Shown here in pieces: positions 2,842 to 36,685 of a DNA stretch of 64,000 nucleotides. The stretch is from a virus, in the IMG/VR virus record IMGVR_UViG_3300037245_003639; one strand, 5' to 3'. Position numbers and translations under genes: made by a program. A model generated the notes under the pieces. It was not told the origin of the DNA. It saw only the letters and a list, made by a program, of their open reading frames with translations, and searched no databases. The stretch's first letter is position 1; each line of letters starts with the position of its first letter.

Positions 2842-3164
2842 CTCTTGGCAATCTCATCAACTGTTTCTTGTAGTTTGGACATGCAGTCATCGAGAACATC
2901 CGGATATTCACAAATGTCTACGCGGATGCCGTTGACCACATGAGTGCGAATCGTGTCCTCACGCATATCGCCACAAACGCAACATTCACCACGCATGTAG
3001 TCTCGTATCTTAGTCCCAGCCGTCCTGGGCTTTCGCTTGCTGTTGTCGCCATGTCGCTTCGTCTTGTTCTTGTCTTTTGTCATTCCATTCCTCTGCCAGT
3101 TTCTTAGTGATCCTTGCAACCGCAATAAAGTAACTCCGGCCACTGATGCCCTGCTTCGCCGCAA
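2823..3164 (-). CDS. hypothetical Cys-containing protein (start uncertain)
   Basis: 113-aa ORF overlapping 3010..3228; an internal start near 2996 would remove the overlap. Confidence 0.3.
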   Translation of the reverse strand: MRRSRASVAGVTLLRLQGSLRNWQRNGMTKDKNKTKRHGDNSKRKPRTAGTKIRDYMRGECCVCGDMREDTIRTHVVNGIRVDICEYPDVLDDCMSKLQETVDEIAKSWPRRS

Positions 3165-3228
3165 TGGCCCGAGCTTGTTTCCTGCATTTCTCTATCTCCG
3201 CTTGAGATAGATAGGGATACTTACTCAT
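3010..3228 (-). CDS. hypothetical protein
   Basis: 72-aa ORF in a different frame from its neighbour. Confidence 0.3.
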   Translation of the reverse strand: MSKYPYLSQAEIEKCRKQARAIAAKQGISGRSYFIAVARITKKLAEEWNDKRQEQDEATWRQQQAKAQDGWD

Positions 3229-3944
3229 CGATCACTCGCTGGCGGTTTCCTGAAACTCCACTCGTTGAAACCTTTAGATTCCGCCTTAAGTTTATCAGGA
3301 ATCACCGGCATTGGCTTCTGCGGAATAGCCAAATTCCCAACAAACATTGCGATCTCTTGGAACGCTGTATATGTGTCGAAAACCCTAAAAAAACCATACT
3401 TATTCAGCATGGAGTTCCATTCTATCACCCCAGTGTATCCACGGCCATGTTTATAAGCCACAAAAATGGGGCAGCGTTTTTCCATGAACATTTGTTCATA
3501 TTGAGTTTGCTGCTTAGCACATTCCCGAAAGAAATCCTCGTAATGCCGTCGAGTGCCACTACCCCACGGGAAGTGTAATCGACGCTGATATCGACCTTTC
3601 TCGTGGTAAGCCCTCAATTCTCGGGGTCGTAGATGTTGCTCCATAAAAGCATCGACTTCGGCCAAACTGAAACATTTGATGCTTAGTGTAGGTTTGGGGT
3701 CATGTTCAATCAACGGTGGGTACAATTCAATCAACGGGTAGATCTTACCGCAGAATCCGATAATATAAGCATCACCCTGATCGCCGTGACAGTTTGGAAA
3801 CGGCCATTCTTTTCGGTCGAGATGTTGTTCTTCTGGCTTGCGAACATAGACCACCGTGCGATCTTGGCCACACCCCATGATGCAGTCGTAATAGTCTTTC
3901 TGGTCCGCGATGATTCTCATGGTCCTGCCCTCATTTAACCTCAA
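3225..3944 (-). CDS. hypothetical protein
   Basis: 239-aa ORF. Confidence 0.5.
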   Translation of the reverse strand: MRLNEGRTMRIIADQKDYYDCIMGCGQDRTVVYVRKPEEQHLDRKEWPFPNCHGDQGDAYIIGFCGKIYPLIELYPPLIEHDPKPTLSIKCFSLAEVDAFMEQHLRPRELRAYHEKGRYQRRLHFPWGSGTRRHYEDFFRECAKQQTQYEQMFMEKRCPIFVAYKHGRGYTGVIEWNSMLNKYGFFRVFDTYTAFQEIAMFVGNLAIPQKPMPVIPDKLKAESKGFNEWSFRKPPASDR

Positions 3945-33608: not shown

Positions 33609-33950
33609 ATGGGTATGGGTTTTAGGATATCGGGATGCAGTTGCAAACGTTTATCGGGCGTGACTAATGTAACTATAACTAATCCCAACCCCGCGAATTT
33701 CAGTATCCTGAAATTTGAAATGGTCGGCGAGTTTTTGATCTTGTTTGTGCGTTATCCTGATTGTACTAACTTTGAAGGTCGAAAGATTTTGGTATTTGAA
33801 GATATTTCAGCAGACGATCTATTTGATCAAAAGCGACTTGACCCTCATTTCTGTGAAGAATGCTTTTCACCAATTGCTCGATTCGTTCCTACTCAACACG
33901 GTTGGGATTTAGCGATGAAATTTTGCCAAAAATGTTGCAACCACGATTGA
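33609..33950 (+). CDS. Cys-rich hypothetical protein
   Basis: 113 aa with RBS GGAGATTTGTCATG. Confidence 0.45.
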   Translation: MGMGFRISGCSCKRLSGVTNVTITNPNPANFSILKFEMVGEFLILFVRYPDCTNFEGRKILVFEDISADDLFDQKRLDPHFCEECFSPIARFVPTQHGWDLAMKFCQKCCNHD

Positions 33951-34111
33951 TGTCGCGTATAATTGTGGTCAGCAATGGAGGATAATGAAATGACTGAGCG
34001 CCAAGCCCTTTAGACGTTGTTCAACGTCGCTTCGAACAATTTAACATCCCTTTAGTTATCGATCGAAATATCATCCCCGATGATGATTCTACGCTTTTTG
34101 TATGCAGCGGC

Positions 34112-34876
34112 ATGCAAAGAGTACGACATCGTTTTCGTCAACTCGACAAACAGAAACACGGCTCTTTGCAGTCTTGCATTAGAACTAACGATCTGGACTC
34201 TGTTGGTGACGGGATGCATCTCACCTATTTCGAGATGCTGGGAAACTTCTCTTTTGGCCGCAACGATTTCGAGGAATCTGTGGAACTCTGGGATTGCATT
34301 ATCCAAGATTTCTCTATACCTGTGACCTTTGTAACAGTTCATCCAGATCGTAATGATCACCGACAGATGTGGCTCCAACGGGGCTACAAAGTTGTTGATA
34401 GTGATGAGAACAAATGGTCCGATGGAGAAATTGGTGGAGAATGTTGCGAGATTTTCTCTGGTCCTCTGGAAGTTGGCAACCTTGTAAATCCTATGGGACA
34501 TTCCACAGATGTCGGTTTCGGCTGGGAACGAATGCTTCAAATCATTGAAAAGAAAGAGCGGGTTGATGAAACCAGTTTGTTTGACCAATCTTTGGACCCA
34601 ATGGTTCGTGATCATGTGCGAACTTTGCGCATTTTGCGGGAACATGACATTCAACCAGGATCAAAAGGACGTGAATATATATGTCGTCGTTTAGTGCGGC
34701 GTATATTAGACCACAATCCGCCGGGCTTTGATGATTGGATTCATCGAGAACGAGAACTACGAGATGATCGCATTCACAAAGGTCGCAAATCTTATAGAAA
34801 GTTTCGTCAGAAATCTTCCCAATGGTGGTGGGAAACTTTCGGAATTTTGCCCGAAGAGATGAAATTGTTGTTATAA
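34112..34876 (+). CDS. alanyl-tRNA synthetase catalytic-domain-only protein (AlaRS-like, no tRNA-binding or editing domains); true start is upstream and out of frame
   Basis: QSCIRTNDLDSVG...HLTYFEMLGNFSFG matches the AlaRS class II core (E. coli QRCVRAGGKHNDLENVG...HHTFFEMLGNFSFGDYF). TDVGFGWERMLQII and VRDHVRTLRILREHD...GREYICRRLVRRIL match VDTGMGLERIAAVL and IADHIRACAFLIADG...GYVLRRIIRRAV. AlaRS-like sequence continues upstream in the +1 frame back to an ATG at about 33990. Confidence 0.7.
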   Translation: MQRVRHRFRQLDKQKHGSLQSCIRTNDLDSVGDGMHLTYFEMLGNFSFGRNDFEESVELWDCIIQDFSIPVTFVTVHPDRNDHRQMWLQRGYKVVDSDENKWSDGEIGGECCEIFSGPLEVGNLVNPMGHSTDVGFGWERMLQIIEKKERVDETSLFDQSLDPMVRDHVRTLRILREHDIQPGSKGREYICRRLVRRILDHNPPGFDDWIHRERELRDDRIHKGRKSYRKFRQKSSQWWWETFGILPEEMKLLL

Positions 34877-34894
34877 TTGTAGAGGCGGCTGTAG

Positions 34895-34962
34895 ATGAGT
34901 GTGTAACAAGTAGGTTCGAATCCTGCCAGCCGTCCTTTTTCGAGAATTGATGATGGCGCTTA
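34895..34962 (+). terminator. tRNA-like minihelix/terminator downstream of the AlaRS-like gene
   Basis: GCGGCTG..GTAGGTTCGAATCCTGCCAGCCGTCC followed by TTTTT; has an acceptor-like stem and T arm but no anticodon arm. Confidence 0.4.
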
Positions 34963-35203: not shown

Positions 35204-35446
35204 GTGGGTTATTTCCCCAATGGCACTTCAGGATGTATGTATGAAGAGAAATGGTGCGAGAATTGTCTCCATGGTCAGGGGGAATTGGGCAACGATTGCG
35301 CTGTTTGGTTAATTCATCAGATGTTCAATTATGATGAATGTAATAACCAAGAAAGTCCTTTGCATATTTTGATTCCAAGAGACAAGGAAGGTTTCAGCAA
35401 GAAATGTGCAATGTTCCACAAAATTCAGAAGGATGCATATGGTTAA
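35204..35446 (+). CDS. Cys-rich hypothetical protein
   Basis: 80 aa with CENCLHG...CAVW. Confidence 0.4.
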   Translation: MGYFPNGTSGCMYEEKWCENCLHGQGELGNDCAVWLIHQMFNYDECNNQESPLHILIPRDKEGFSKKCAMFHKIQKDAYG

Positions 35447-35996
35447 GGTTTGTGGACCCCGCGACAAGAGAAGACCCGAGGCTATCAATACCACGTCCCG
35501 CTCCAAGAACTGGAGTCGAGGATTAAGTCCGTTCGTTTTAGGCCCTATTGAATGTTGCGCTGGCATTATGGCTCGTAACGTCGAGAACGCTTGGCAGTAT
35601 TCCAAAGTCTATAAATGCCATACCAAAGAAGATGGTTCCCCATCGTTGGATTACTTCAAATGGGCCAAAGCTGGTTGGCTTGATCCCATGGCTCATCGAT
35701 ATCCAATGGGTAAAGGTGTAATACCTGAATACTCTTATTGGAACGGCAAAAAGTTGACTTACGTTCAAGCTCGCAAAGAGATTTACGTTCCTTTGTATTC
35801 TAAGGCCGTCGCTGATACTCCCGCATTTGCCAAACTCAAAGATCTTTATGAAGAGCAGGAAGAACTTTGGCTTTGGGACTTCGATGGGTATGATCATCGC
35901 AAGTTGGGTATGGATTTAAATGAGGTTCTTGACTGCGCTGAGAAAAAAATGGGTCATGCTTTTGTTCTCGCGATGATGCTGGAAGGATATCTATAA
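35433..35996 (+). CDS. hypothetical protein
   Basis: Start taken at MHMVKV; otherwise well-formed ORF. Confidence 0.45.
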   Translation: MHMVKVCGPRDKRRPEAINTTSRSKNWSRGLSPFVLGPIECCAGIMARNVENAWQYSKVYKCHTKEDGSPSLDYFKWAKAGWLDPMAHRYPMGKGVIPEYSYWNGKKLTYVQARKEIYVPLYSKAVADTPAFAKLKDLYEEQEELWLWDFDGYDHRKLGMDLNEVLDCAEKKMGHAFVLAMMLEGYL

Positions 35997-36685
35997 TGCA
36001 ATATAACGCAGTTCTGTTTGATTACGGAGATACGCTATCCGGCGGGCATGGTTGGATAAACCAAATGATTCAACAACTTTATGAATCAGGATATCGTCTG
36101 GGCATCGTTAGTAATAGCAATCGCTATGGAGATGCTTATTGGCTCCGTTCTCATATAGCCAAAAAGTGGCCCGGGCATTTCGAGGTTGTTATTGGATCAG
36201 GTGGATTTTTGGGTCATCAATCAGAATCCGGGGTATATATGGGGGGTTCACTCGGATGTCATAAACCAGATATGCGGATCTATGAGCGAGCAATCCATTT
36301 CCTTAACATGCCTCCCGCGAGAATTATGTTTGTTGGGGATACCTTTAATGCCGATGTTGTCGGTCCCAATGAGGCGGGAATGACGGGGTTTCTAGGGAAA
36401 AGCGATTTCGACTACGCCCCTAATCTCTGGGATAAACTGGGTGACAAACCTTGTCAACGTCGTAATTTGCTAACCAGTTATTCTGTTGAATACGAGAACA
36501 ATCATTGGGTCATTATCACTCGGTTGGTACATCTTACAGAACCACTCCAGAAAGATGAGGAGGTTATTGCGGGTCTCCGGCCATGGCAAGTAAAAGTATG
36601 GAACGTAAAACACGACAAAAACGATATCCTTGATACAACTAGGAACCACAGGAAATTAATACGTATCCACGTCGAGTCAATTTAA
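35996..36685 (+). CDS. HAD-superfamily hydrolase
   Basis: Motif I LFDYGDTL, motif II GIVSNS, motif III lysine CHKPD and motif IV FVGDTFNADV. Confidence 0.7.
   Translation: MQYNAVLFDYGDTLSGGHGWINQMIQQLYESGYRLGIVSNSNRYGDAYWLRSHIAKKWPGHFEVVIGSGGFLGHQSESGVYMGGSLGCHKPDMRIYERAIHFLNMPPARIMFVGDTFNADVVGPNEAGMTGFLGKSDFDYAPNLWDKLGDKPCQRRNLLTSYSVEYENNHWVIITRLVHLTEPLQKDEEVIAGLRPWQVKVWNVKHDKNDILDTTRNHRKLIRIHVESI

What the first reader, a model, noticed from the sequence alone, without database searches (positions are those of the whole stretch)
33990..34120. AlaRS catalytic-core gene whose N-terminus requires a +1 frameshift at a prfB-like CUU-UAG site
An ATG at about 33990 opens MTERQAL and hits TAG. From the next nucleotide, the +1 frame reads RRCQRRFEQFNIPLVIDRNIIPDDDSTLFVCSGMQRV..., which aligns with the AlaRS N-terminus (AEIRQAFLDFF...LVPHNDPTLLFTNAGMNQF) and runs in-frame into the annotated 34112..34876 ORF. 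The shift site CTT-TAG-A matches the programmed +1 frameshift logic of RF2 (CUU UGA C), where Leu-tRNA slips CUU to UUU at a poorly decoded stop. The product would be an about 290-aa AlaRS catalytic domain with no tRNA-recognition, editing or C-Ala domains. Such minimal AlaRS cores can aminoacylate G3:U70 minihelices, and every Ala tRNA here carries G3:U70. A tRNA-like minihelix/terminator sits immediately downstream (34895..34962).
Basis: partly seen in the sequence, partly recalled or inferred. Interest (0 to 1): 0.75.

Follow-up and report, generated by a model that had tools for sequence, protein, structure and literature searches.

The report
Frameshift-dependent mini alanyl-tRNA synthetase gene
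A huge-phage gene for a stripped-down alanyl-tRNA synthetase can only be made if the ribosome slips back one base within its first six or seven codons, at a deeply conserved site built around an alanine codon, which suggests a switch that senses the supply of charged alanine tRNA.

Summary
The details were wrong. The AlaRS frame is -1 (or +2) relative to that ATG, not +1. The quoted '+1' peptide mixes two frames. The prfB-like CUU-UAG logic is not conserved.

The layout is family-wide: at least 64 distinct loci, plus seven found later, from huge phages and metagenomes, down to 32% protein identity. Each has a Shine-Dalgarno sequence, an ATG, usually four sense codons, then a zero-frame GCN (Ala) codon. 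Zero-frame stops are strongly enriched just after it, and the enzyme continues in the -1 frame.

Counting from the Ala G, position -6 is C in 64/64 and the bases at -4 and -3 are identical in 63/64. The 'GC' is kept at nucleotide level while the overlapping -1 codon changes amino acid (Ser, Arg, Gly, Cys). The N-terminal segment is under purifying selection in the -1 frame only.

Best reading: a programmed -1 frameshift at an alanine codon, probably tuned by Ala-tRNA availability. The recoding is well supported; the sensing mechanism is inferred.

The parts
33935..33963 (+). Promoter-like site: TTGCAA, 17-nt spacer, TATAAT. It would give a short 5' leader.
   Evidence: 10 of 12 consensus matches. 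A similar TTGCAA..TATAAT is visible upstream in L002. This is a consensus match only.
33977..33981 (+). Shine-Dalgarno sequence GGAGG, 8 nt upstream of the out-of-frame ATG. It is part of the conserved GGAGGATAA(Y)NAA leader, whose TAA closes the -1 frame in many loci.
   Evidence: logo positions -28..-20. An SD-like motif lies 3-16 nt upstream of the ATG in 58/64 loci.
33990..34013 (+). Zero-frame leader ORF: ATG ACT GAG CGC CAA GCC CTT TAG (MTERQAL*).
   Evidence: Equivalent short ORFs, mostly 6-10 codons, occur in 64 distinct homologous loci.
33998..34007 (+). Conserved shift cassette G-C-N-X-X-W-M-G-C-N, here GCGCCAAGCC. C33999 is the invariant C at -6. C34001 and C34002 are the identical pair. 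CAA 34002-34004 is the proposed P-site codon. GCC 34005-34007 is the conserved zero-frame Ala codon. AGC 34004-34006 is the first -1-frame codon read after the slip.
   Evidence: C at -6 in 64/64; N(-4)=N(-3) in 63/64; -2 is A or T in 60/64; the third base of GCN varies freely; the overlapping -1 codon is AGC 35, CGC 22, GGC 4, TGC 3; 33 distinct 10-mers. A TGA at 33995-33997 in the -1 frame forces the shift to occur at or after 33998.
33998..34876 (+). AlaRS-like reading frame (-1 relative to the ATG), 292 codons plus a TAA stop. The predicted product is about 295 aa, for example MTERQ-SPLDVVQRRF....
   Evidence: AF2 model with pLDDT 88; best structural matches are AlaRS catalytic fragments. 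Purifying selection in this frame upstream of the internal Met.
34013..34028 (+). Small hairpin GACGUU-GUUC-AACGUC, starting 5 nt after the Ala codon. It is a possible local stimulator of the shift.
   Evidence: Related loci L002, L003, L005 and L006 have an 11-bp hairpin at +11 with a compensatory change (CGA/TTC versus CGT/TAC). This is not a family-wide feature.
34112..34114 (+). Internal ATG, the Met of the invariant CSGMQ motif. Gene callers use it as the start, but it is not the real N-terminus.
   Evidence: The closest database proteins (P0001, P0009, P0024, P0029) are called from this same Met at 254-256 aa. Invariant residues P27..G38 lie upstream of it.
34884..34934 (+). tRNA-like element: an 8-bp acceptor-type stem containing one G:U pair, a T-arm (GGTTCGAATCC) and only about 18 nt in between, followed by a T-run. 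Its relation to the enzyme is unknown.
   Evidence: weak Rfam tRNA-clan match, 18.1 bits, E=1.7, below threshold. ARAGORN does not call it.

Best explanation
The gene encodes a minimal AlaRS-like enzyme of about 295 aa: a catalytic core with the alanine and ATP pocket intact, plus the first helices of the tRNA-recognition domain. It has no editing or C-Ala domain. Making it requires a programmed -1 ribosomal frameshift inside a very short leader.

Proposed mechanism:
1. Ribosomes initiate at the SD-preceded ATG (33990) and read four codons in the zero frame.
2. They arrive with CAA (34002-34004) in the P site and the conserved Ala codon GCC (34005-34007) in the A site.
3. If Ala-tRNA(Ala) is plentiful, Ala is inserted and the ribosome terminates at once at the closely following stop (here CTT TAG), releasing a hexa- or heptapeptide.
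4. If Ala-tRNA(Ala) is scarce, the A site stays empty. The P-site peptidyl-tRNA slips back one base onto the overlapping codon, whose first base is always the same (the X_X rule; here C|CAA to CCA).
5. The A site then reads the -1 codon NGC (here AGC, Ser), and translation continues through the whole enzyme.

This would be a negative-feedback switch: a low level of the enzyme's product raises synthesis of the enzyme.

Shown: the -1 frame relation; the absence of a start codon; deep conservation of the cassette; coding selection in each frame on either side of the site; conservation of the catalytic residues.

For: 1. Frame arithmetic and translations.

2. At least 64 distinct loci share SD-ATG-(3-5 codons)-GCN with the enzyme in the -1 frame, and Ala is codon 6 in 55/64. 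Further examples include a 634-kb phage at 32% identity and IMG/VR huge phages.

3. Nucleotide logic:
- The 'GC' at 0/+1 is always kept while the overlapping -1-frame codon encodes Ser, Arg, Gly or Cys.
- The third base of GCN is free (A23, C22, T13, G6). This marks a zero-frame Ala codon rather than a -1-frame residue.
- The bases at -4 and -3 are identical in 63/64 with all four bases represented. This is covariation for identity, as expected of a slip site.

4. Limits on where the shift occurs:
- -1-frame stops at nt 6-8 after the ATG in five loci, including the window.
- A zero-frame stop directly after Ala in 18 loci.
- Together these confine the shift to about 10 nt around the cassette.

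5. Zero-frame stops are enriched at codons 1-5 after Ala (18, 21, 8, 16 and 13 of 64) against a 4% background; P about 1e-25 for the first two codons.

6. The 37 codons upstream of the internal Met evolve as coding sequence in the -1 frame only:
- Differences by codon position 65/28/175.
- 143 synonymous versus 78 nonsynonymous codon changes, against 16/192 and 18/182 in the other frames.
- 0 stops versus 127 and 143.

7. 17/64 loci have no ATG, GTG or TTG at all in the enzyme frame before the internal Met. In the rest such codons are scattered.

8. Published mechanisms match the cassette:
- A slippery X_XXN tetramer followed by a 'hungry' codon gives single P-site-tRNA -1 slippage.
- tRNA-Ser3 pairs out of register with Ala codons.
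- Both are described in PMC10861913 and PMC5009743.
- Leu-tRNA abundance modulates HIV -1 frameshifting (PMC6547452 abstract).

9. Family residues R62, W140, N161, V163, D171 and G173 align with the AlaRS pocket residues. The fold matches AlaRS catalytic fragments at TMq 0.70-0.77.
Against: - Only 30/64 loci have a P-site codon that re-pairs in two of three positions after a -1 slip (TTA, TTG, TTC, AAC, AAA). In the window (CAA to CCA) and 33 other loci, only the first position is certain to re-pair. The cassette is therefore not a canonical X_XXN tetramer.
- The invariant C at -6 and the G or C at -7 have no role in this model.
- The SD lies about 20 nt from the P-site codon, further than the 10-14 nt I recall for dnaX-type stimulation.
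- Dependence on Ala-tRNA, the shift efficiency and the enzyme's substrate are all untested.
- The 64 loci are related by descent, so they are not 64 independent observations. There are 33 distinct cassettes and roughly 6-8 X/W types.
Confidence: 0.55

Rival explanations
1. A constitutive programmed -1 (or +2) frameshift that does not sense Ala-tRNA. The shift is obligatory and set by the local sequence, or by host-specific tRNAs, at some base between 33998 and 34013. It might occur at codon 3/4 so that the -1-frame GCN at -7..-5 is read as Ala, or with tRNA-Ala in the P site and the stop or next codon in the A site. In this reading the zero-frame Ala codon is conserved for another reason.
For: - The -1-frame codon at -7..-5 is GCN in 54/64 loci with a free third base, which looks like a translated Ala.
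- C at -6 is invariant and is unexplained by the hungry-codon model.
- Stops are enriched right after the Ala codon, so a slow A-site stop could matter.
- A hairpin starts 5-8 nt after the Ala codon in some clades.
Against: - No tRNA re-pairing is possible for tRNA-Ala (GCN to NGC) or for codon 3 (NNG).
- L020 and L042 have no -1-frame GCN after the last -1-frame stop.
- Three loci have no nearby zero-frame stop.
- This reading does not explain why 'GC' at 0/+1 is fixed while the -1-frame residue varies among Ser, Arg, Gly and Cys.
Confidence: 0.25
2. The short ORF is an independent regulatory leader peptide (attenuation-like or stalling uORF carrying one Ala codon). The enzyme is initiated separately, either at the internal ATG 34112 (a 254-aa product) or at a non-canonical codon in its own frame.
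For: - Leader peptides rich in the cognate codon regulate other aaRS operons (pheST, from general knowledge).
- Gene callers do pick ATG 34112, or TTG/GTG codons in relatives.
Against: - Residues upstream of Met39 are invariant across the family (P27, T32, L33, F34, C36, S37, G38).
- That segment evolves under purifying selection in that frame and aligns to the AlaRS N-terminus.
- 17/64 loci have no ATG, GTG or TTG there. In the others such codons sit at scattered positions without an SD.
- The only SD sits 7-8 nt upstream of the out-of-frame ATG.
Confidence: 0.08
3. A backward hop. Peptidyl-tRNA-Ala detaches from the zero-frame GCN (34005-34007) when the next codon is slow to decode. It re-pairs with the -1-frame GCN 7 nt upstream (33998-34000), and translation resumes in the -1 frame (product MTERQA-PSPLDVV...).
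For: - It explains two conserved 'GC' dinucleotides 7 nt apart.
- The central C at -6 is invariant and the G at -7 is present in 54/64 loci.
- Stops are enriched after the take-off codon.
Against: - The third bases of the two GCN codons are uncorrelated: GCG/GCC 12 times, GCT/GCA 11 times.
- Ten loci have CCG at the landing position, and two of them have no -1-frame GCN at all.
- It does not explain the X=X rule.
- I know of no precedent for a programmed -7 hop.
Confidence: 0.07
4. An artefact or decay: a 1-nt assembly or sequencing error, or a pseudogene.
For: A single missing base in the CCC/TTT run at 34006-34011 would restore the frame in this one sequence.
Against: - The same out-of-frame layout occurs in 64+ independent assemblies from different samples and sequencing projects.
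- The junction sequences differ among them and synonymous changes are abundant.
Confidence: 0.01

Closest known systems
prfB (RF2) programmed +1 frameshift autoregulation
   Same: A translation factor or enzyme gene whose full-length product requires a frameshift early in the mRNA. The zero frame ends at a nearby stop. The plausible logic is that slow decoding of the A-site codon, which depends on the gene's own product, raises frameshifting.
   Different: - The direction is -1, not +1.
- The conserved A-site codon is a sense codon (GCN, Ala), not UGA.
- CUU is not conserved.
- There is no SD 3 nt upstream of the site.
- The site is at codons 5-6 rather than codon 26 (prfB details from general knowledge).
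Hungry-codon single-tRNA -1 slippage (X_XXN plus a scarce aa-tRNA codon), as studied by Gallant and in the dnaX and HIV 'slow regime' work
   Same: An X_X repeat at the P-site codon boundary is followed by a defined A-site codon. An A or U at the second base of the P-site codon in 60/64 loci makes the take-off duplex weak. PMC10861913 describes exactly this scenario.
   Different: - The known cases are experimental or non-programmed. The 2016 review PMC5009743 says of hungry-codon frameshifting that yields functional trans-frame proteins that 'no examples are known'.
- Here the full X_XXN tetramer is present in only 30/64 loci.
Non-cognate out-of-register decoding of Ala codons by tRNA-Ser3 (anticodon GCU) in phage MS2 translation
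   Same: It is a -1 shift at a GCN codon, and it competes with cognate Ala-tRNA. The overlapping -1 codon is AGC in 35/64 loci, including the window. One relative (L005) has a tRNA-Ser(GCU) gene 9 nt downstream of the enzyme gene.
   Different: - In 29/64 loci the -1 codon is CGC, GGC or TGC.
- The MS2 events are low-level and have no known function.
- The X=X rule is not part of that mechanism.
Canonical bacterial -1 PRF (dnaX, IS elements, phage tail-chaperone G/GT)
   Same: The direction is -1, the site is conserved across homologues, and some clades have a hairpin 5-8 nt downstream.
   Different: - There is no X XXY YYZ heptamer.
- There is no family-wide stimulatory structure.
- The zero-frame product is a 6-10-residue peptide, not a second functional protein.
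Tupanvirus mini-AlaRS (461 aa; PMC10036535) and 'small-AlaRS'
   Same: [quoted passage not shown]
   Different: - This protein is about 295 aa, with further deletions in the catalytic core and only the first helices of the tRNA-recognition domain.
- It is bacterial or phage in origin.
- Its activity is untested.
- TuAlaRS is not reported to need recoding.

Membership tests
Alanyl-tRNA synthetase, class IIc catalytic domain (Pfam PF01411) | Sequence match above the Pfam gathering threshold | tested here: met
   80.9 bits against a cut-off of 30.3, E=1e-22.
Alanyl-tRNA synthetase, class IIc catalytic domain (Pfam PF01411) | AlaRS catalytic-fragment fold | tested here: met
   AF2 model pLDDT 88, pTM 0.81. 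The top Foldseek PDB hits are all AlaRS catalytic fragments, E about 1e-15, TMq 0.70-0.77.
Alanyl-tRNA synthetase, class IIc catalytic domain (Pfam PF01411) | Alanine and ATP pocket residues (E. coli R69, W170, N212, V214, D235, G237) | tested here: met
   Family-invariant R62, W140, N161, V163, D171 and G173 fall on the corresponding motifs (CxR, W.xGD, E.xNLV, DxGxGxER) in profile alignments to 1riq, 3hxu and 9jdn. The E. coli numbering is partly from memory.
Bona fide full-length AlaRS (NCBIfam TIGR00344 alaS equivalog) | [quoted passage not shown] | tested here: not met
   83.7 bits against a cut-off of 457. The protein is 292-295 aa, and the alignment to AlaRS ends near residue 310-360 of the catalytic fragments.
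Bona fide full-length AlaRS (NCBIfam TIGR00344 alaS equivalog) | Aminoacylation of G3:U70 tRNA-Ala | not testable with these tools
   The only support is that three G3:U70/A73 tRNA-Ala genes co-occur in the window.
prfB-type +1 programmed frameshift | The target frame is +1 relative to the initiating frame | tested here: not met
   The +1 frame is closed (RRCSTSLRTI*). The enzyme frame is -1.
prfB-type +1 programmed frameshift | Conserved CUU-stop shift site with an SD 3 nt upstream | tested here: not met
   The codon before the stop is CTT, ATT, TTG, TTT, TCA, ATG and others. The stop lies 0-20 codons after the conserved Ala codon. The only SD is the initiation SD.
Canonical -1 PRF cassette | X XXY YYZ slippery heptamer | tested here: not met
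   The conserved pattern is S-C-N-X-X-W-M-G-C-N. Only the X_X identity holds (63/64).
Canonical -1 PRF cassette | Downstream stimulatory stem-loop or pseudoknot 5-9 nt from the site | tested here: inconclusive
   A clade-specific 11-bp hairpin with one compensatory change occurs in L002, L003, L005 and L006, and a 6-bp hairpin in the window. There is no consensus structure, and the MFE equals that of control windows.
Hungry-codon P-site slippage (-1) | X_XXN tetramer immediately 5' of a defined A-site codon | tested here: inconclusive
   X_X holds in 63/64 loci. The full X_XXN is present in 30/64. A GCN codon follows in every locus that carries the leader.
Hungry-codon P-site slippage (-1) | Frameshift efficiency rises when the cognate aa-tRNA is scarce | not testable with these tools
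   This needs in vitro translation or in vivo reporters.
Leader-peptide / uORF control with independent initiation of the main ORF | The main ORF has its own start codon and ribosome-binding site | tested here: not met
   17/64 loci have no ATG, GTG or TTG in the enzyme frame before the internal Met. In the others such codons are scattered and lack an SD.

The most novel reading that the evidence does not exclude
This would be the first natural example of a programmed frameshift that uses a sense 'hungry' codon as its sensor. An aminoacyl-tRNA-synthetase homologue would be made only when ribosomes stall at the codon for its own amino acid. That gives direct translational feedback from Ala-tRNA(Ala) charging to AlaRS-like enzyme synthesis, conserved across a whole family of huge-phage genes.
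Probability: 0.45. Interest if true: 0.9.

Novelty: new variant of a known kind. Interest (0 to 1): 0.8.

Why it matters
Programmed frameshifts that act as sensors are rare textbook cases (RF2, antizyme). A 2016 survey of the field states that no example is known of hungry-codon frameshifting being used to make a functional protein. A conserved -1 shift at the cognate codon of an aaRS-like gene would fill that gap.

It would also give a compact, testable cassette of about 40 nt for studying how A-site vacancy drives frame change.

It may also indicate what this unstudied roughly 295-aa 'alanine--tRNA ligase-related' family does in huge phages that carry near-complete tRNA sets.

There is a practical consequence too. 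Database entries for this family have wrong N-termini: 254-256 aa from the internal Met, or chance TTG/GTG starts. Frameshift-unaware annotation will keep producing them.

Tried and rejected
- A megablast search of the region against the phage collection found no match. A single-protein scan of IMG/VR found nothing; an alignment query was needed.
- Sequencing error or pseudogene is rejected by conservation and by the substitution pattern.
- Stop-codon reassignment was considered from the sequence. Reading TAG as sense only extends the wrong frame, and the TGA at 33995-33997 and TAA codons still close the enzyme frame upstream.
- Transcriptional slippage was considered. The longest homopolymer at the site is 3 nt and is not conserved.
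- A family-wide stimulatory RNA structure was not found. alifold gave no consensus. The downstream MFE of -14.0 kcal/mol compares with -11.2 to -14.4 in control windows of the same genes. The earlier z-score of -1.3 came from mononucleotide shuffles and does not hold up against these controls.
- SD-stimulated (dnaX-like) slippage is unlikely. The SD ends about 20 nt before the P-site codon.
- The backward tRNA-Ala hop was tested through the third bases of the two GCN codons, which show no correlation.
- Other ORFs in the window with a long start-less 5' extension and an out-of-frame SD-ATG: none was found apart from this gene.
- The class II aaRS-core gene next to the homologue in L005 has an ordinary in-frame ATG.
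- Literature searches for a described frameshift in AlaRS-like or phage aaRS genes found nothing relevant.
Full report
**Observation**

The sequence at 33990 reads ATG ACT GAG CGC CAA GCC CTT TAG, which is MTERQAL*. GGAGG lies 8 nt upstream at 33977-33981. The ORF called at 34112..34876 (254 aa) is open in its own frame back to 33998, where it reads APSPLDVVQRRFEQFNIPLVIDRNIIPDDDSTLFVCSGMQRV.... That frame has no ATG, GTG or TTG before 34112.

33990 is position 0 mod 3 and 34112 is 2 mod 3, so the enzyme frame is -1 (or +2) relative to the ATG. The real +1 frame reads RRCSTSLRTI*. The quoted 'RRCQRRFEQF' is a splice of the two frames.

**What the protein is**

The extended ORF matches Pfam PF01411 (tRNA-synt_2c) at 80.9 bits against a cut-off of 30.3. 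It falls far below the full-length alaS equivalog cut-off, at 83.7 against 457.

It aligns to solved AlaRS catalytic fragments from about residue 5-20 onward. An AlphaFold model built on a 24-sequence family alignment has pLDDT 88. Its best PDB matches are all AlaRS catalytic fragments, with TMq 0.70-0.77.

Family-invariant residues R62, W140, N161, V163, D171 and G173 fall on the AlaRS motifs that hold alanine and ATP. Several loops of the core are deleted. [quoted passage not shown]

At about 295 aa it is much smaller than the 461-aa Tupanvirus mini-AlaRS.

The family is sizeable. It has at least 501 clusters at 90% identity and a few dozen at 50%. Members come from huge phages of 125-634 kb in IMG/VR and GenBank, from metagenomes, and from contigs binned mostly with Planctomycetota. 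The window itself carries 44 tRNA genes.

**The frame problem is a family trait, not an error**

The nearest database proteins (P0001 at 83% identity; P0009, P0024 and P0029 at about 68%) are all called from the same internal Met. Their DNA shows the same layout: AGGAGGATAAnnAA, an ATG, six sense codons, then TAG, with the enzyme in the -1 frame.

A scan of about 100 fetched loci gave 64 distinct loci with an SD-preceded ATG in the +1-relative frame, 92-110 nt upstream of the LFxCSGMQ motif. Seven more loci that the motif filter had missed show the same layout. These include LR745206, a 634-kb phage whose protein is only 32% identical.

Proteins that databases show as full length (P0002, P0004) start at chance TTG codons about 30 nt from the SD and carry the same leader. 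Only a few distant members have a genuine in-frame ATG (L017, L040, L041, L064, L069, L070, L085).

**The N-terminal segment is translated in the -1 frame**

Between the shift region and the internal Met, differences within the window's clade fall 65, 28 and 175 on codon positions 1, 2 and 3. Differing codons are synonymous 143 times and nonsynonymous 78 times. In the other two frames the figures are 16/192 and 18/182.

Across the 64 loci that frame has no stop, against 127 and 143 stops in the other two. Invariant residues P27, T32, L33, F34, C36, S37 and G38 lie upstream of the Met that gene callers use.

**Anatomy of the shift site**

The leaders were aligned on the zero-frame GCN codon, with its G as position 0. 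The findings are:

- Ala is codon 6 in 55/64 loci, codon 5 in 6, and codon 4 in one.
- The third base of GCN is free (A23, C22, T13, G6).
- The overlapping -1 codon is always NGC: AGC 35, CGC 22, GGC 4, TGC 3. The 'GC' is thus fixed while the -1-frame residue varies among Ser, Arg, Gly and Cys.
- This is the signature of a zero-frame Ala codon. Equivalently, it is a GC doublet that must face an anticodon.
- The bases at -4 and -3 are identical in 63/64 loci, and all four nucleotides occur. This is covariation for identity, as at slip sites.
- Position -2 is A or T in 60/64.
- Position -6 is C in 64/64, and -7 is G in 54 and C in 10.

The shift can be located within narrow limits. -1-frame stops at nt 6-8 after the ATG in five loci, including the window (TGA 33995-33997), place it at or after nt 9. 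A zero-frame stop directly after Ala in 18 loci places it at or before that point.

Zero-frame stops are strongly enriched in the five codons after Ala: 18, 21, 8, 16 and 13 of 64, against a 4% background. Three loci run on for 15-20 codons, so a stop is not essential.

**Mechanism**

The best fit is the 'hungry codon' regime of -1 frameshifting. With the Ala codon unoccupied in the A site, the P-site peptidyl-tRNA on X-W-M slips back onto X-X-W. The A site then reads NGC.

PMC10861913 describes this scenario as an X_XXN tetramer followed by a codon whose aa-tRNA is scarce. It also describes the alternative in which tRNA-Ser3 pairs out of register with an Ala codon. PMC5009743 covers the same MS2 work and notes that no natural use of hungry-codon frameshifting to make a functional protein is known.

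Either route makes frameshifting inversely dependent on Ala-tRNA(Ala). For an AlaRS-like enzyme this is a negative-feedback loop analogous to RF2/prfB.

The model has four weaknesses:

- Only 30/64 P-site codons re-pair at two positions. The window's CAA to CCA does not.
- The invariant C at -6 is unexplained.
- No family-wide stimulatory structure exists. One clade does have an 11-bp hairpin with a compensatory change, and the window has a 6-bp hairpin at 34013-34028.
- Nothing about tRNA dependence, or about the enzyme's substrate, has been tested.

I put about 0.9 on 'a conserved programmed -1 (or +2) recoding event is required' and about 0.5 on the Ala-tRNA-sensing mechanism.

**Rivals**

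- A constitutive shift at another base of the cassette.
- Independent initiation, with the short ORF acting as a leader peptide.
- A backward hop of peptidyl-tRNA-Ala between the two GCN codons 7 nt apart.
- Artefact.

The first cannot be excluded by sequence alone. The second conflicts with the missing start codons and with the position of the SD. The third is not supported by the third-base comparison, and it fails in loci that lack a -1-frame GCN. The fourth is excluded.

CTT-TAG is present only in the window and in L006. Other members of the clade have ATT, TTG or TTT before TAG, and more distant members end the leader elsewhere. The prfB analogy holds for the regulatory idea but not for the direction, the site or the stimulators.

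**Context**

- A promoter-like TTGCAA-17-TATAAT lies at 33935-33963.
- The three tRNA-Ala genes of the window have G3:U70 and A73.
- A tRNA-like acceptor plus T-arm element follows the gene at 34884-34934.
- No other ORF in the window shows this architecture.

Noticed in passing
window 34884-34934: A tRNA-like element lies 8 nt after the enzyme's stop codon. It has an 8-bp acceptor-type stem with one G:U pair, a canonical T-arm (GGTTCGAATCC) and only about 18 nt in place of the D and anticodon arms, followed by a T-run. ARAGORN does not call it. Rfam gives a sub-threshold tRNA-clan match (18.1 bits, E=1.7). It could be a decayed tRNA, a minihelix substrate or a processing signal.
   Followed up: partly
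L005 3777-3867 (Logan ERR10503229 contig), next to the homologue at 3001-3768: A tRNA-Ser with anticodon GCU lies 9 nt downstream of the homologous enzyme gene. This is the tRNA species known to shift -1 on Ala codons in MS2 translation, and AGC is the -1 codon at the shift site in 35/64 loci. L003 also has an uncalled T-arm-like sequence downstream of its gene.
   Followed up: partly
L005 2407-2874 and 4513-5256: The homologue is flanked by a 155-aa RF-1-domain protein containing a GGQ motif (ArfB / peptidyl-tRNA-hydrolase-like) and by a 247-aa class II aaRS-core-like protein (PF00587) that has an ordinary ATG start. tRNA genes lie around both. These phages therefore cluster several reduced translation-factor genes.
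   Followed up: partly
window 1940-27594: There are 44 tRNA genes in 26 kb. They cover most amino acids, with duplicated isoacceptors (Phe, Lys, Asn, Ile, Glu, His, three Met and six Arg anticodons). No Leu, Cys, Trp, Tyr or Asp tRNA is present in this window.
   Followed up: no
L035 (Ga0315336_1000031, 859,269 bp) and L102 (CAWAYY010000025.1, 802,945 bp, Pirellulales MAG): Family members with the same frameshift leader sit on contigs of more than 800 kb. These are either bacterial chromosomes or prophages (so the gene is not phage-only) or phage genomes larger than any I know of. Seven of the 12 hits in GTDB genomes are in Planctomycetota bins, which hints at the host range.
   Followed up: no
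L002, L003, L005, L006: +11..+35 from the Ala codon (e.g. L003 about 2741-2765): An 11-bp hairpin TTGTTCGNAA-NNN-TTNCGARCAA lies within the coding sequence for V-R-N-R-F/Y-E-Q. A synonymous Arg change (CGA to CGT) is paired with a Phe to Tyr change (TTC to TAC) that keeps the stem intact. The window has a different, shorter hairpin instead.
   Followed up: partly
database proteins P0001, P0009, P0024, P0029, P0099, P0114, P0002, P0004 and others: Public protein predictions for this family have systematically wrong N-termini. They are either truncated to the internal Met of CSGMQ (254-259 aa) or start at chance TTG/GTG codons.
   Followed up: yes
window 33609-33950 and 35204-36685: The neighbouring ORFs include a 113-aa Cys-rich protein upstream and, downstream, an 80-aa Cys-rich ORF, a DUF6939-like protein and a HAD hydrolase-like protein. 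They are syntenic with L002, the 83%-identical relative. Their functions were not examined.
   Followed up: no
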